The position numbers are program-made. This document shows positions 6,001 through 10,872 of a stretch of 10,872 nt of DNA, piece by piece. The stretch lies in IMG/VR virus record IMGVR_UViG_2609459844_000005, positions 1 to 10,872 of that record; one strand, given 5' to 3'. The DNA is from a virus (taxonomy: Duplodnaviria > Heunggongvirae > Uroviricota > Caudoviricetes). The first letter of the stretch is position 1, and each line of letters begins with the position of its first letter.

Positions 6001-9000
6001 ATTAAATCCTGCCAGTGGCCACACGGCGATTATCATCACAGCGAAACCGTTATTCACCGTTATGGTACCGGCGCAATGGTGTTGTGCTGGCACTGCGACA
6101 ACCAGCTGCGTGACCAGACATCCGAATCACTCGGGCAACTTGCTCATCAAAACCTGTCAGCATGGATGATTGACGTCATCGGTCACGCAATAAGCGGTAC
6201 GCAGGAGCGTGAATTATCTCTGGCTGAATTATCCTGGTGGGCGGTCCGCAATCAGGTGGCGGACGCGCTACCGGAAGCGGTATTACGTCGTTCGCTGGGG
6301 TTGCGTGCGGAAAAAATCCGCTCAATGTACCGTGAAAGCGACATCGTACCGGGAGAGCAGACCGCCACCAGCATACTGAAGCAGCGCACAAAAAATCTTG
6401 CGCCGCTGCCTCACGCCCACCAGCAAACCCCGCCACAGGAAAAGACGGTGGTCAGCATTGCCGTTGATCCCGAGTCACCGGCTCAGTATCTCCAGCGCCA
6501 GAAATCACAACGGGAAGAGATGCCTGTATACACGCGCTGGGTAAAAACGCAGAAATGCATGACGTGTGGCAATCAGGCAGATGATCCGCATCACATCATT
6601 GGTCATGGACTGGGAGGGATGGGAACAAAGGCTGATGATTTGTTTGTTATTCCGCTGTGCCGTAAATGCCATAGCGAACTACACGCCGGGGTAAAAGATT
6701 TTGAAGAAAAACACGGCAGCCAGCTGTTGTTGCTGATTCGTTTTTTAATGCACGCGAGAAATTCGGGTGTTCTGAAGTGGAAAGCATAAATGACTGAACG
6801 CATAGAATTTGTTTTGCCTTACCCGCCAACGGTGAACACTTACTGGCGTCGTCGTGGCAGCACATATTTTATCTCGGAGGAGGGAAAGCGTTATCGCCGG
6901 GCTGTGGCGCTTATTGTTCGCCAGCAGCGGCTGAAATTAAGCCTGTCCGGAAGGCTGGCGATAAAGGTGATTGCAGAGCCACCGGATAAGCGTCGTCGCG
7001 ACCTGGACAATATCCTGAAAGCACCGCTGGATGCGCTGACGCATGCGGGAGTGTTAATGGACGATGAGCAGTTTGATGAAATCAATATCGTTCGTGGTCA
7101 GCCAGTATCTGGTGGACGTCTGGGGGTGAAAATTTACCCCATAATGCATGAAGAGCAGGTCAAAAAATGAAACTGGAAGATTTACCGAAATACTACTCCC
7201 CAAAATCCCCTGGCCTGACCGATGCATCGGCCTCAACGTCAAAAGATGCGCTGAGTATCACTGATGTGATGGCCGCGCAGGGCATGACTCAGAATCGGGC
7301 TGAGATGGGTTTTTCTGCGTTCCTGGGGAAAATGGGCATCAGTATGAATGACAGGGCGCGGGCAACAGAATTACTGGCAGAGTATGCACTCAGTCGGTGC
7401 GATCGTGTGGCGGCGTTGAGAAAACTTCCGGCAGAAATAAAACCGGTAGTGATGCGCATTATGGCTTCGTACGCTTTTGAGGATTATGCCCGCAGCGCAG
7501 CGAGTAAAAAGCAGTGCCCTTGTTGCTATGGGGAAAAATTTATTGAAAGCGTAGTTTTTACAAACAAGGTCCAGTATCCGGATGGTAAGCCGCCGGTATG
7601 GGCAAAGTGTACGAAAGGTGTGTATCCTTCTTACTGGGAAGAATGGAAAAAAGTCAGGGAGGTGGTAAAAGTTGCCTGTCCGGAGTGTGGCGGAAAGGGT
7701 GAGGTTTCCACCGCCTGTAAGGATTGCCGTGGGCGTGGTGTCGCCATTCATCGTGAAGAGTCGGTAAAACGTGGTATGCCTGTTATCAGAGACTGCCAGC
7801 GTTGTGGTGGTCGTGGCTGTGAAAGACTACCATCAACGGAGGCATTTAATGCCATACGCAAAGTGACGAGTGCTATCACGCTTGATACGTGGAAAAAATC
7901 AGTGAAACGCTTTTACGATACGTTGGTGGTTCGGTTTGACATTGAAGAGGCATGGGCGGAGCGGCAGTTAAAGAGGGTAACGCGATAGTGTTGTTGATTT
8001 TTCCCGAATTTGTGGTAAATTTGCCCTAACGATGGGCGTTTTATGCCTGACGTTAGAAGATTTTTTACACCCCGCCGCCTGGCGGGTTTTTTATGACTGA
8101 AATCGCGTCAGTACAGTAAACGCGCTGGTGGCGGTGAATACCTGTCTTTCAGCTTGCTGGCTTTTTCGACAAGAGTTATTGGTGTGTCACGTTAACCGGA
8201 AAAGGGAAAAAGACATGCTAAAACAGCAGGATATGACAGAAACCGCCAGAGTGGTGTTTAATGAATTAAGCGTTACCGAACCGGCGACAGTCGGGGAGAT
8301 AGCGCAGAATACTTACCTTTCACGCGAACGCTGCCAGTTAATACTGACCCAGCTGGTTATGGCGGGTCTGGCAGACTATCAGTTCGGTTGTTACAGACGC
8401 CTTCCGCAGTGAAGGCTTTTTTATTTGTGGTAAATGGGCGGCTGGTGGGTGTTAGGGGCACCCACCAGCCATCTGCTCATGCGTTGGGTTCACAAGCAAA
8501 CCTCAGGCCCACTGCTTTGCGCAAAAGCAGAATGAGCCTATCAGAGACAGGCTTAATGATCCATGCTTAATACTGTAAAAATATCCAGTTGTGAGTTAAT
8601 CAACGCCGACTGCCTGGAATTTATCCGGTCGTTACCCGAAAATTCTGTTGACCTGATAGTCACGGACCCGCCGTACTTTAAAGTGAAGCCTGAGGGCTGG
8701 GATAACCAGTGGAAGGGCGACGATGATTACCTGAAGTGGCTGGACCAGTGTCTGGCGCAGTTCTGGCGGGGGCTGAAACCTGCCGGAAGTCTTTACCTGT
8801 TCTGTGGTCATCGCCTGGCATCTGATATCGAAATCATGATGCGTGAACGCTTCAGTGTGCTGAACCATATTATCTGGGCGAAGCCGTCCGGACGCTGGAA
8901 CGGATGCAACAAGGAAAGCCTGCGGGCGTATTTCCCCGCCACAGAGCGCATTCTGTTCGCGGAACATTATCAGGGGCCGTATCGTCCGAAAGATGCCGGG

Positions 9001-10872
9001 TATGCGGCGAAGGGCAGTGCACTGAAACAGCATGTGATGGCCCCGCTGATTTCTTACTTTCGTGATGCGCGCGCGGCCCTGGGGATAACGGCAAAACAGA
9101 TTGCAGATGCCACAGGAAAGAAAAACATGGTGTCGCACTGGTTCAGTGCCAGTCAGTGGCAGCTACCGAACGAAAGCGATTATCTGAAATTACAGTCGCT
9201 GTTTGCCCGGGTGGCAGAAGAGAAACATCAGCGGGGAGAACTGGAAAAGTCCCATTACCAACTGGTCAGCACATACAGTGAGCTGAACCGGCAGTATATG
9301 GAACTGCTGAGTGAATATAAAAATTTGCGGAGGTATTTCGGTGTGACGGTGCAGGTGCCGTACACCGATGTGTGGACGTATAAACCGGTGCAGTACTATC
9401 CAGGGAAACATCCGTGCGAAAAACCGGCAGAAATGTTGCAGCAGATAATCAACGCGAGCAGTCGTCCGGGAGACCAGGTTGCAGATTTTTTTATGGGCTC
9501 AGGTTCAACGGTAAAAGCGGCACTGGCGCTCGGGCGTCGTGCGATTGGCGTTGAACTGGAGACCGGACGTTTTGAGCAGACAGTCAGGGAAGTTCAGGAT
9601 TTAATCGTTTGAAACGGATGAGATTGCAGAATTAATTACGCACCATTATTATTCTGCTTCCGGCCCTTTAGCTCAGTGGTGAGAGCGAGCGACTCATAAT
9701 CGCCAGGTCGCTGGTTCAAATCCAGCAAGGGCCACCATCACATACCGCCATTAGCTCATCAGGAAAGAGCGCCAGCCTTCGAAGCTGGCTGCGCGGGGTT
9801 CAAGTCCCCGATGGCGGTCCATTATCTGCATCATGCGTTGTTAGCTCAGCCGGACAGAGCAATTGCCTTCTAAGCAATCGGTCACTGGTTCGAATCCAGT
9901 ACAACGCGCCACACTTATTTTCCCTGGCTCGCTTTTGCGGGCCTTTTTTTTTAAATGTCTCACAATTCAGACGGTTGACTGTTGTCTGGTTTGCGGGGAG
10001 TTTGTTAAAAGAAACTGGCATGGTGAATCCCCCTGTGCGGAGGGGCAATCAGCGAGTAGGTATATGGGATAATCGCGGATTCAGGTGCTGGTACTGAATT
10101 CACCGGGAGGCACCCGGCACCATGCAATGGCACATAGCGCCACTCTCCAGCCCCTCTCCGGAGGGGCTTTCTTGTGGGCAAAAAAAGCCCGCGCTGGGAG
10201 ACGCGGGCGGCAAGGAATAAACAATAAAACGTGAAGTAATATTTCAGCTGGCGAATAATACCCCATAGTAATCACTCTGCGCAACTGCGCGGTCTTTTTC
10301 GAATTGCGGGCTGTCGTCTCTCTTCTGCCATTGTCCTGTAACTTCCGGACTTCAGCCCGCTCCTCATTTTACTCACAATATTATCCCGGCCGGGAGGATT
10401 CATGGCATTTAAACACTATGATGTTGTCAGGGCGGCGTCGCCGTCAGACCTTGCGGAAAAGCTGACACACAAACTGAAAGAGGGCTGGCAGCCATATGGC
10501 GGACCGGTTGCCATTACGCCGTACACACTGATGCAGGCGGTGGCTATTGAAGGAGATCCACAGGTCGGCCCTTCATCTGAGCCGGACTGGTTCTACGTGG
10601 TTGTGCTTGCCGGACAGTCCAACGGCATGGCCTACGGTGAAGGGCTTCCGTTACCGGATTCTTACGATGCTCCGGATCCGCGCATTAAACAGCTGGCGCG
10701 CCGCAGCACGGTAACTCCGGGTGGAGAGAGTTGTACGTATAACGACATCATCCCGGCTGACCACTGTCTGCATGATGTGCAGGATATGAGTACGCTGAAT
10801 CATCCGAAGGCAGACCTGAGCAAAGGGCAGTACGGCTGTGTCGGCCAGGGCTTACATATTGCCAAAAAACTG

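What the first reader, a model, noticed from the sequence alone, without database searches (positions are those of the whole stretch)
8215..9612. Orphan beta-class DNA methyltransferase with a small HTH protein, bracketed by terminators downstream of Q
The MTase has motif IV (DPPY) before motif I (FxGxG), so it is a beta-class amino-methyltransferase, with no partner endonuclease. It and the preceding 65-aa HTH protein lie behind two intrinsic terminators downstream of PR', so expression is probably Q-antitermination dependent, that is, late during induction. This suggests self-protective methylation of progeny DNA or an epigenetic role; the HTH protein could be a controller-like regulator.
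Basis: partly seen in the sequence, partly recalled or inferred. Interest (0 to 1): 0.55.

Follow-up and report, generated by a model that had tools for sequence, protein, structure and literature searches.

The report
M.EcoGII-type prophage methylase with leader RNA
The gene is an ordinary copy of the already characterised prophage enzyme M.EcoGII, which methylates adenines in any sequence context, but just upstream of it lies a conserved folded RNA leader, apparently undescribed, that also precedes unrelated phage DNA-modification genes.

Summary
Window 8563-9612 encodes a 349-aa beta-class N6-adenine methyltransferase (DPPY before FxGxG). Window 8215-8412 encodes a real 65-aa winged-helix protein. 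Both lie behind terminators downstream of Q, and no endonuclease is nearby.

The methyltransferase is not new. It is 338/349 identical to the E. coli O104:H4 protein whose sequence matches the published M.EcoGII, the non-specific adenine methyltransferase that is silent in lysogens and toxic when expressed. The same DNA occurs in about 1,750 complete E. coli genomes and in many Stx phages.

The best reading is a Mom-like anti-restriction function: it over-methylates progeny phage DNA late, after Q antitermination. An epigenetic role and a "controller" role for the small protein are not supported. The small gene is absent from about a third of otherwise identical cassettes.

The unexpected part is the 135-nt spacer at 8428-8562. 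It is more conserved than the coding DNA and folds into five covariation-supported helices. It abuts a start codon with no Shine-Dalgarno sequence and matches no Rfam family. It also precedes Mom-family genes, C5-methyltransferase genes and com-like-plus-methyltransferase pairs in other phages. It is probably a shared regulatory leader, but that function is untested.

The parts
7167..7988 (+). Q antiterminator gene (273 aa)
   Evidence: PF03589 Antiterm, 170.9 bits. RefSeq annotates the identical DNA as 'antitermination protein'.
7994..8021 (+). Candidate late promoter PR' (TTGATT-N16-TAAATT with an upstream TG); inferred
   Evidence: Read from the sequence. It matches 8 of 12 consensus positions, below the scanner's threshold. 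A promoter-like TTGCAA-N17-TAGGAT sits at the same place after the same type of Q gene in L013, followed by a conserved initial transcribed stretch.
8071..8092 (+). Intrinsic terminator (tR'-like) about 45-65 nt after the candidate PR'
   Evidence: Six G-C pairs followed by T6. A terminator is present at this position in the 31 aligned loci that carry the small-ORF cassette.
8153..8190 (+). Conserved non-coding block upstream of the small ORF (CTTGCTG-N9/10-ACCAGAGTTATCTGTATGTCAC in the consensus); function unknown
   Evidence: At least 90% conserved columns across 31 loci. As a sigma-70 promoter it would match only about 6 of 12 positions.
8215..8412 (+). Gene for a 65-aa winged-helix protein (phrog_331, unknown function)
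   Evidence: Coding constraint. AlphaFold winged helix. 334 homologues in Enterobacterales, which NCBI labels 'TrmB family'. phrog_331.
8399..8422 (+). Second intrinsic terminator. Its hairpin overlaps the stop codon of the small ORF and lies directly before the leader RNA.
   Evidence: A G+C-rich, terminator-like hairpin directly precedes the leader in every subfamily examined.
8428..8562 (+). Conserved structured leader RNA. Helices in window coordinates: P1 8435-8439/8507-8511; P2 8440-8451/8459-8470; P3 8472-8477/8495-8500; P4 8512-8518/8524-8530; P5 8531-8538/8550-8557. The covariance-model match runs from 8424 to 8577.
   Evidence: Mean column identity is 84%, higher than in the coding DNA. 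The covariance model R1 scores 137.7 bits here. The fold z-score is -4.07. No Rfam 15 family matches.
8441..8448 (+). Chi octamer GCTGGTGG forming the 5' arm of helix P2. A second Chi is at 8124-8131 on the + strand.
   Evidence: Chi is at this position in 39 of 51 species-level leaders and in 64 of 120 viral contigs. It is absent from the distant members.
8563..9612 (+). M.EcoGI/GII-family beta-class N6-adenine DNA methyltransferase (349 aa; WP_032186282.1)
   Evidence: PF01555. 338/349 identical to the O104:H4 protein that matches the published M.EcoGII sequence. PADLOC MTase_II model, 546 bits.
9662..9911 (+). Three tRNA genes: CAU (annotated as tRNA-Ile in RefSeq), Arg-UCG and Arg-UCU
   Evidence: ARAGORN, Rfam, RefSeq annotation.
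9926..9952 (+). Intrinsic terminator after the tRNA genes
   Evidence: Seven pairs followed by T9.

Best explanation
The segment is part of the late operon of a lambdoid prophage. Its large gene encodes a member of the M.EcoGI/M.EcoGII family. This is a beta-class N6-adenine methyltransferase that, in the characterised enzyme, methylates adenine in any sequence context.

It most likely does what Mom does for phage Mu. Late in lytic growth it over-methylates replicating phage DNA, so that progeny escape restriction systems sensitive to adenine methylation.

Because the enzyme is toxic, it is kept off in the lysogen by two layers:
1. Transcription from the constitutive late promoter stops at the terminators at 8071 and 8399 unless Q modifies RNA polymerase. 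This step is inferred from the anatomy.
2. The start codon has no Shine-Dalgarno sequence and is directly preceded by a conserved 135-nt five-helix leader RNA, which probably sets or gates translation. The structure is shown by covariation; its function is inferred.

The 65-aa winged-helix gene is a frequent but dispensable neighbour of unknown function.

In this particular prophage the immunity and replication module is deleted. Q, and therefore the methyltransferase, may only be switched on in trans.
For: Identity:
- The window protein is 338/349 (97%) identical to P0121. P0121 is the exact O104:H4 protein (AKE83937.1, AFS73976.1) that equals the M.EcoGII sequence printed in PMC11551740 after three apparent machine-reading errors are corrected. 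The two proteins fall in the same 90%-identity cluster of 4,845 members.
- The orthologous gene in strain 55989 sits in the same Q, small ORF, leader, MTase, tRNA order. It is 333/349 identical to M.EcoGII, the figure published for M.EcoGI.

Published properties: non-specific m6A activity on DNA and RNA, silence in the lysogen, toxicity, and an assumed switch-on at induction (PMC5778455). Homologues 92-94% similar at the amino-acid level are listed as 'nonspecific' and gave no detected motif in lysogens (PMC6602927).

Context:
- The cassette lies between Q and the lysis genes in E. coli, Klebsiella, Salmonella, Buttiauxella and phiP27, behind three Q families.
- No consensus sigma-70 promoter was found on the + strand in 7800-10500, and terminators are enriched there.

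Mom analogy:
- Distant relatives of the MTase in Acinetobacter, Vibrio, Shewanella and one other gammaproteobacterium have a Mu Com-like zinc-ribbon ORF overlapping the MTase start. PF10122 scores are 48, 34.7 and 33.3 bits against a cut-off of 22.9.
- The same leader RNA precedes Mom-family genes (PF25680, 144 bits) and C5-cytosine MTase genes (PF00145) in viral contigs.

Leader RNA:
- Across 45 distinct sequences, 92.7% of cells pair, against at most 44% in slid controls. There are 39 compensatory cells against 13.7 +/- 2.8 in shuffles.
- In 12 diverse sequences, 10 of them not used to build the model, 32 of 37 pairs show compensatory change, against 19.5 +/- 2.1 in shuffles and at most 12 in slid controls.
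- U-A/U-G alternation fits folding of the + strand only.
Against: - No expression, methylation or restriction data exist for this allele. It carries 11 substitutions relative to M.EcoGII, so non-specificity is inferred from 97% identity.
- PR' is a weak consensus match, and Q dependence has not been shown for any member of this cassette.
- The conserved block at 8153-8190 could be an unconventional promoter that drives the small gene, and by read-through the MTase, independently of Q.
- The alignments behind searches were fitted to the model, which inflates pair counts.
- The function of the leader is untested. A start-codon sequestration model was compatible with the alignment but showed no compensatory change, and it was not significant by duplex energy.
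- Mu's own com-mom region has no copy of the RNA, so the Mom parallel is functional analogy, not shared regulatory ancestry.
Confidence: 0.8

Rival explanations
1. The enzyme is a sequence-specific orphan methyltransferase with an epigenetic or regulatory role in the lysogen, in the manner of Dam or CcrM.
For: It is an orphan and belongs to the same beta class as CcrM. RefSeq names it 'site-specific DNA-methyltransferase'.
Against: It is 97% identical to the non-specific M.EcoGII. Family members gave no motif in lysogen methylomes (PMC6602927; PMC5778455). It lies behind two terminators with no consensus promoter. Constitutive expression is reported to be deleterious.
Confidence: 0.04
2. The pair is the remnant or variant of a restriction-modification system. 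The small protein would be a C (controller) protein, and the nuclease would lie elsewhere or have been lost.
For: A small DNA-binding-fold gene sits directly upstream of the MTase. In phiP27 a GIY-YIG nuclease gene lies between Q and the cassette.
Against: No nuclease gene lies next to the MTase in the window, nor in the more than 40 related loci that keep the cassette. The phiP27 nuclease matches the stand-alone defence gene PD-Lambda-1 at 299 bits and is absent elsewhere. The small protein is a winged helix with no match to Xre-type HTH_3. It is missing from about a third of the cassettes. A non-specific methyltransferase cannot pair with a site-specific nuclease in the usual way.
Confidence: 0.03
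3. The winged-helix protein is a dedicated regulator of the methyltransferase. It might bind the conserved DNA block at 8153-8190 or the leader RNA, playing the part that Com plays for mom.
For: It lies next to the leader and MTase in 27 of 41 species-level loci and about 50 of 92 viral contigs. Its third helix and wing are nearly invariant. Analogous small winged-helix ORFs sit upstream in the divergent Pseudocitrobacter, Proteus and Vibrio loci. Some winged helices bind RNA, and SelB domains appear among the fold matches.
Against: It is dispensable. Fourteen loci keep the leader and MTase with unrelated genes in its place. It is absent from the Mom and C5-MTase versions. It has its own terminator, which gives it the anatomy of an independent moron. 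All fold matches are generic (E > 1e-3).
Confidence: 0.15
4. The conservation of the 8428-8562 spacer reflects a function at the DNA level rather than an RNA. It could be a Chi recombination hotspot or a module junction used in mosaic exchange.
For: An exact Chi octamer forms the invariant 5' arm of P2 in most enterobacterial copies. Chi is enriched about 30-fold in the window, with 9 sites against 0.28 expected. The leader marks the left edge of homology between otherwise different phages.
Against: Compensatory changes occur in all five helices, including members whose P2 and P4 sequences are entirely different and lack Chi. G-U pairs form only on the + strand. The distance to the start codon is fixed at 124-134 nt in 89 of 92 viral contigs. 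The two functions are not mutually exclusive.
Confidence: 0.1

Closest known systems
M.EcoGII (and M.EcoGI) of E. coli O104:H4 C227-11, the non-specific beta-class N6-adenine methyltransferase (Murray et al. 2018, PMC5778455)
   Same: Both are 349 aa, and the window protein is 338/349 identical. The DPPY, central domain, FxGxG order is the same. Both are prophage-borne orphans. The 55989 orthologue, whose 333/349 identity to M.EcoGII equals the figure published for M.EcoGI, has the same Q, small ORF, leader, MTase, tRNA arrangement.
   Different: There are eleven substitutions, none in DPPY or FxGxG. The specificity of this allele has not been measured. This copy sits in a prophage that has lost its immunity and replication module.
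Phage Mu com-mom operon
   Same: Both encode a late, host-toxic modification of adenine that protects phage DNA from many restriction enzymes, held off by stacked transcriptional and translational controls (PMC3299994). Distant relatives of this MTase carry a Com-like ORF overlapping their start. The leader RNA found here also precedes Mom-family genes in other phages.
   Different: The enzyme fold and chemistry differ: methyl transfer here, carbamoylmethyl-type modification in Mu. The window has no com gene. Control is by Q antitermination rather than by Mu C, Dam and OxyR. Mu itself has no copy of the leader RNA.
Hia5 / Hin1523 / Nma1821, the non-specific adenine methyltransferases of Mu-like prophages (Drozdz et al. 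2012, PMC3299994)
   Same: They are non-specific m6A enzymes sitting in the 'mom position' of prophages. They are silent in the lysogen and are thought to be anti-restriction functions.
   Different: The paper describes them as Dam-like, with EcoDam, DpnM and T4 Dam as closest structures and DPPY near residue 194. They therefore have a different motif order and are analogues, not homologues. This is taken from the paper; their sequences were not compared here.
C-protein-controlled Type II restriction-modification systems
   Same: A small gene for a DNA-binding fold lies just upstream of a methyltransferase gene.
   Different: There is no restriction gene. The protein is a winged helix rather than an Xre-type helix-turn-helix. 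It is a dispensable partner, and no palindromic C-box was seen by eye in 8090-8215.

Membership tests
M.EcoGI/M.EcoGII family (non-specific beta-class m6A DNA methyltransferases of enterobacterial prophages) | Beta-class motif order: catalytic DPPY (motif IV) at the N-terminus, a central target-recognition region, and FxGxG (motif I) at the C-terminus | tested here: met
   DPPY is at residues 35-38 and FFMGSGS at 309-315. PF01555 covers residues 29-340. Both motifs are invariant in relatives.
M.EcoGI/M.EcoGII family (non-specific beta-class m6A DNA methyltransferases of enterobacterial prophages) | Close full-length sequence similarity to the characterised enzyme | tested here: met
   338/349 identical with no gaps to the O104:H4 protein that matches the published M.EcoGII sequence, and in the same 90%-identity cluster.
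M.EcoGI/M.EcoGII family (non-specific beta-class m6A DNA methyltransferases of enterobacterial prophages) | Encoded on a prophage with no cognate restriction endonuclease | tested here: met
   The window has lambdoid int, xis, exo, RusA, Q and tRNA genes. No nuclease gene is adjacent here or in related loci.
M.EcoGI/M.EcoGII family (non-specific beta-class m6A DNA methyltransferases of enterobacterial prophages) | Methylates adenine regardless of sequence context; silent in the lysogen | not testable with these tools
   Known for M.EcoGII only (PMC5778455). Inferred here from 97% identity.
Type II restriction-modification system with a controller (C) protein | A restriction endonuclease gene adjacent to the methyltransferase | tested here: not met
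   The flanks are Q upstream and tRNA genes, the STnc100 sRNA and a DUF1737-domain gene downstream. The only nuclease seen in any relative, in phiP27, is a PD-Lambda-1 homologue.
Type II restriction-modification system with a controller (C) protein | The small regulator is an Xre/HTH_3-type protein that is co-inherited with the system | tested here: not met
   The small protein has no HTH_3 match and only weak winged-helix matches. AlphaFold gives a winged helix. It is absent from 14 of 41 loci that keep the MTase.
Mu-type com-mom modification module | A Com zinc-ribbon translational activator gene overlapping the start of the modification gene | tested here: not met
   The window has no such ORF. 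One is present in distant relatives: L069, L062 and L059 score above the PF10122 cut-off, and L058 and L065 score below it.
Mu-type com-mom modification module | The modification enzyme belongs to the Mom family | tested here: not met
   The window enzyme matches PF01555, not PF25680. However, the same leader RNA precedes PF25680 Mom-family genes in 8 viral contigs.
Any described RNA family (Rfam 15), for the 8428-8562 leader | A match to a curated covariance model | tested here: not met
   Nothing matched on the + strand at E<=1 in the window or at E<=0.1 in five representative loci. The only hit was a chance-level match to P26 on the opposite strand (24 bits against a cut-off of 36).

The most novel reading that the evidence does not exclude
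The 135-nt element at 8428-8562 may be a previously undescribed class of cis-acting leader RNA. It would be shared by at least three unrelated families of phage DNA-modification enzymes: M.EcoGII-type N6-adenine methyltransferases, C5-cytosine methyltransferases and Mom-family enzymes, in some lineages with a Com-like protein. It always lies directly after a terminator-like hairpin and directly before the first start codon. On this reading it is the device that keeps these host-toxic anti-restriction genes silent until late lytic growth, by gating translation or by another RNA-level switch.
Probability: 0.55. Interest if true: 0.65.

Novelty: already known. Interest (0 to 1): 0.35.

Why it matters
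The methyltransferase itself adds nothing new. It is one more copy of an enzyme family that is already characterised and, by my own knowledge, sold commercially and used as a tool for footprinting chromatin and RNA.

What remains unknown for this family is how phages keep such a toxic, indiscriminate enzyme silent and then release it. The locus offers a concrete, testable answer with three parts: terminators read through by Q, a start codon with no Shine-Dalgarno sequence, and a conserved structured leader.

The same leader precedes Mom and C5-methyltransferase genes. If it proves regulatory, it would define a common control module for phage anti-restriction DNA modification. It would also give a sequence handle for finding such genes in phage genomes.

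Tried and rejected
1. Insertion between repeats. I asked whether the small-ORF module was inserted between the two copies of ATTTGTGGTAAAT (near 8008 and 8421). Rejected: phages that megablast showed as lacking the ORF (Stx2c phages) carry a diverged allele of it, and the second copy is the conserved 5' tail of the leader RNA in all phages.
2. Own sigma-70 promoter for the MTase or the small ORF. The scan found none on the + strand. The conserved block at 8153-8190 matches only about 6 of 12 positions. Left unexplained.
3. Start-codon sequestration by the P3 loop (CAUG with YAUG, and GGUCA with UGAUC). The alignment is compatible: 98-99% of cells pair and every one-sided change but one keeps pairing. 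There is no compensatory change. Duplex energies were not better than shuffled controls in 9 loci. Kept only as a hypothesis. A 5'-tail/P3-loop pseudoknot seen by eye was not tested.
4. A conserved peptide in the leader. Open frames exist (for example 8388-8570), but single-nucleotide indels shift the frame between homologues. Rejected.
5. The leader in Mu's com-mom region. No covariance-model hit.
6. Literature searches for the leader sequence, for an RNA motif upstream of phage methyltransferases, and for M.EcoGII expression on induction. Nothing relevant turned up.
7. The weak Rfam match to P26 on the minus strand. Below threshold and on the wrong strand; treated as chance.
8. Looking up the genomic context of the M.EcoGII protein directly.
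9. Four of the 120 viral pattern matches (L125, L157, L162, L193) looked like chance matches. The covariance model gave no hit in the three that were searched; L162 was not searched.

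
Full report
WHAT IS THERE

The window is the left part of an E. coli lambdoid prophage. In order it carries:
- integrase (1-1119, minus strand) and excisionase;
- an 823-aa exonuclease;
- a hokD-like gene;
- a DUF968 gene (5734-6789) and RusA (6790-7170);
- a 273-aa Q antiterminator (7167-7988; PF03589, 171 bits);
- the 65-aa ORF (8215-8412);
- the 349-aa methyltransferase (8563-9612);
- three tRNA genes (9662-9911);
- the sRNA STnc100 (9989-10179);
- the start of a gene encoding a DUF1737 domain.

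Residues 35-38 are DPPY and residues 309-315 are FFMGSGS. The third terminator lies after the tRNA genes, not directly after the methyltransferase.

THE METHYLTRANSFERASE IS A KNOWN ENZYME

A supplementary table of PMC11551740 prints the M.EcoGII sequence (GenBank EGT69837.1). I corrected three apparent machine-reading errors, which recur in every other sequence shown from those supplementary tables. The corrected sequence exists exactly in the protein collection as the E. coli O104:H4 protein (AKE83937.1, AFS73976.1).

The window protein (WP_032186282.1) is 338/349 identical to it, with no gaps, and sits in the same 90%-identity cluster of 4,845 members. The orthologue in strain 55989 is 333/349 identical to M.EcoGII. 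That is exactly the figure published for M.EcoGI, and the gene lies in the same Q, small ORF, spacer, methyltransferase, tRNA order.

[quoted passage not shown] It acts on DNA and RNA, is not expressed in the lysogen, and is deleterious when expressed. Its authors presume it is switched on when the prophage excises, to defeat restriction (PMC5778455). Homologues 92-94% similar at the amino-acid level in O111 strains are listed as non-specific and gave no methylation motif in lysogens (PMC6602927).

The DNA of 7900-9950 is found at 80% coverage or more in 1,756 of 5,426 complete E. coli genomes and in 292 phage records, mostly Stx2 phages. As a gene, then, this is ordinary.

CONTEXT AND LIKELY CONTROL OF TRANSCRIPTION

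The cassette sits between Q and the lysis genes in E. coli, Klebsiella, Salmonella, Buttiauxella and phage phiP27. It does so behind three Q families (PF03589, PF06323, PF06530).

A candidate late promoter, TTGATT-N16-TAAATT with an upstream TG (7994-8021), is followed by a strong terminator at 8071-8092. A promoter-like sequence occupies the same position after the same type of Q gene in L013. A terminator is present upstream of the small ORF in all 31 loci aligned. A second terminator overlaps the small ORF's stop codon. The scan found no consensus sigma-70 promoter on the + strand.

Q-dependent late expression is therefore the simplest reading. It fits the published silence of the family in lysogens. 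It remains an inference.

In this particular prophage, about 5 kb holding the repressor, cro and replication genes of a close relative is replaced by 0.5 kb (window 4443-4939 against L091 4964-9994). Q may thus have no promoter of its own cascade here.

THE SMALL PROTEIN

It is a real gene. Synonymous differences outnumber non-synonymous ones 5552 to 1815, and third-codon positions vary most. There are 334 homologues, and those listed come from Escherichia, Shigella, Salmonella, Klebsiella, Citrobacter and Buttiauxella. It belongs to phrog_331, a family of unknown function.

AlphaFold gives a three-helix, two-strand winged helix. The best model has pLDDT 90, but the other four score about 58, so caution is needed. 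Fold matches are generic winged-helix domains from IclR and MarR regulators, O-methyltransferase dimerisation domains and SelB. All have E-values above 1e-3.

It is not an obligatory partner of the methyltransferase:
- Among species-level loci with a methyltransferase at least 69% identical, 27 have it and 14 do not.
- In those 14 loci the slot holds unrelated genes, or Q directly.
- Among viral contigs, about 50 of 92 have it.

It has its own Shine-Dalgarno sequence, its own terminator and a conserved upstream block (8153-8190) of unknown function. It is not an Xre-type C protein, and there is no restriction gene for it to time. The "controller" idea is not supported, though a modulatory role is not excluded.

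THE UNEXPECTED PART: THE SPACER IS A STRUCTURED RNA

The roughly 150 nt between the two genes is more conserved than either gene (84% mean column identity across six genera) and is constant in length.

In 46 species-level sequences it folds into five helices:
- P1, UGGGC with GCCCA;
- P2, a 12-bp hairpin;
- P3, where one pair occurs as C-G in 22 sequences, A-U in 10, U-A in 8 and U-G in 4, and is never unpaired;
- P4;
- P5, which ends 5 nt (in most relatives 7 nt) before an AUG with no Shine-Dalgarno sequence.

Overall, 92.7% of cells pair, against at most 44% in slid controls. There are 39 compensatory cells against 13.7 +/- 2.8 in shuffles (0 of 500 shuffles reach the observed value). U-A/U-G alternation fits the + strand only. 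The window copy folds with a z-score of -4.07.

A covariance model built from these sequences finds divergent copies upstream of distant relatives of the methyltransferase in Pseudocitrobacter, a Vibrio plasmid, Acinetobacter and another gammaproteobacterium. Scores fall from 41 to 17 bits. In these copies P2 and P4 have entirely different sequences yet still pair. In these lineages, and in a second Vibrio and a Shewanella locus where the model found no RNA, a Mu Com-like zinc-ribbon ORF overlaps the methyltransferase start. In the Acinetobacter, Vibrio-plasmid and other gammaproteobacterial loci it lies between the RNA and the methyltransferase.

A pattern scan of viral contigs gave at least 120 loci. 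Of the 109 usable ones:
- 92 have an M.EcoGII-type gene, and in 89 of these its ATG lies 124-134 nt from the start of the pattern match (AATGGGCG);
- 3 have a C5-cytosine methyltransferase gene (PF00145) instead;
- 8 have a Mom-family gene (PF25680, 144 bits; phrog_1384);
- 2 have lysis genes directly after the RNA.

The covariance model confirms the RNA in representatives of these other classes at 40-64 bits.

On 12 diverse sequences, ten of them not used to build the model, 32 of 37 pairs show compensatory change, against 19.5 +/- 2.1 in shuffles and at most 12 in slid controls. The caveat is that this alignment was fitted to the model.

Other points about the leader:
- A G+C-rich, terminator-like hairpin directly precedes the RNA in every class examined.
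- No Rfam 15 family matches, and text searches found nothing.
- Mu's own com-mom region lacks the RNA.

WHAT THE LEADER PROBABLY DOES

It is tied to the first start codon of host-toxic DNA-modification genes from three unrelated enzyme families. In some lineages it occurs together with a homologue of Com, the translational activator of Mu mom. The most economical reading is therefore a translational control leader. That reading is inferred.

Two details fit it. The start codon has no Shine-Dalgarno sequence. The string AAUACUGUA lies in the 5' UTR of the Mom and C5 versions but inside codons 3-5 of the M.EcoGII-type genes, so an RNA-level constraint appears to reach into the coding sequence.

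A specific model, in which the P3 loop pairs with the initiation region, is compatible with the alignment but is neither supported by compensatory change nor significant by energy.

An exact Chi octamer forms the invariant arm of P2 in most enterobacterial copies but not in the distant ones. A second function at the DNA level may overlap the RNA.

VERDICT

It missed that the enzyme is the known M.EcoGI/GII family, and it over-read the small protein. The finding as given is already known.

Noticed in passing
window 8428-8562 (covariance-model match 8424-8577); also L004 5204-5356, L092 3300-3444, L126 7546-7698, L065 2701-2854: A conserved five-helix leader RNA lies directly upstream of the MTase start codon. 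The same RNA precedes Mom-family genes, C5-MTase genes and com-like-plus-MTase pairs in other phages. No Rfam 15 family matches it.
   Followed up: yes
window 164, 1980, 5901, 5959, 8124, 8441 (+ strand); 6365, 6417, 8462 (- strand): The window holds nine Chi octamers (GCTGGTGG), against 0.28 expected from shuffles. One forms the invariant 5' arm of leader helix P2. Two more flank the small ORF in the same orientation as late transcription, so that by my own knowledge of Chi orientation RecBCD entering from the cos side would meet them.
   Followed up: partly
window 4443-4939, compared with L091 4964-9994: The prophage lacks the roughly 5-kb immunity and replication module (LexA-family repressor, cro, ydaT, replication gene, DUF977, queH) that is present in a 96%-identical relative. 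It is probably a defective prophage whose Q gene has no upstream cascade.
   Followed up: partly
window 8153-8190: A non-coding block upstream of the small ORF (consensus CTTGCTG-N9/10-ACCAGAGTTATCTGTATGTCAC) is at least 90% conserved in 31 loci across genera. It is a poor sigma-70 promoter match, and its function is unknown.
   Followed up: partly
window 8569-8577; L092 and L126 5' UTRs: AAUACUGUA forms codons 3-5 (Asn-Thr-Val) of M.EcoGII-type genes. The same string lies in the untranslated leader of the Mom and C5-MTase versions, which suggests an RNA-level element that overlaps the coding sequence.
   Followed up: no
L069 2820-3008, L062 2865-3050, L058 2865-3041, L059 (end of 2559-3044), L065 2832-2942: Mu Com-like zinc-ribbon ORFs overlap the start of distant M.EcoGII-family methyltransferase genes in Acinetobacter, Vibrio, Shewanella and another gammaproteobacterium. 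This is a com-mom-like arrangement built around a beta-class methyltransferase.
   Followed up: partly
L003 (phiP27) 1200-2429: The GIY-YIG/T5orf172 gene between Q and the cassette in phage phiP27 matches the stand-alone defence gene PD-Lambda-1 (299 bits). It is a defence moron, not a partner nuclease.
   Followed up: yes
window 9989-10179: A full-length match to the sRNA family STnc100 (139 bits, cut-off 47) lies between the tRNA genes and the DUF1737-domain gene.
   Followed up: no
window 9662-9737: ARAGORN calls the first tRNA a tRNA-Met (CAU anticodon). RefSeq annotates the identical gene as tRNA-Ile, and Stx-phage records name it ileZ.
   Followed up: no
window 5075-5287: A Hok-family toxin ORF (MKQQKAMLIALIVICLTVIV...) sits where the relative FCI48 is annotated with hokD.
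   Followed up: no
window 8557-8565: An in-frame UGA lies two codons before the MTase AUG, and a GATC (Dam) site lies at 8558-8561. In most relatives a UGA instead overlaps the AUG (AUGA). Short upstream frames starting at the conserved CAUG in the P3 loop end there in some lineages, but the frame is not conserved.
   Followed up: partly
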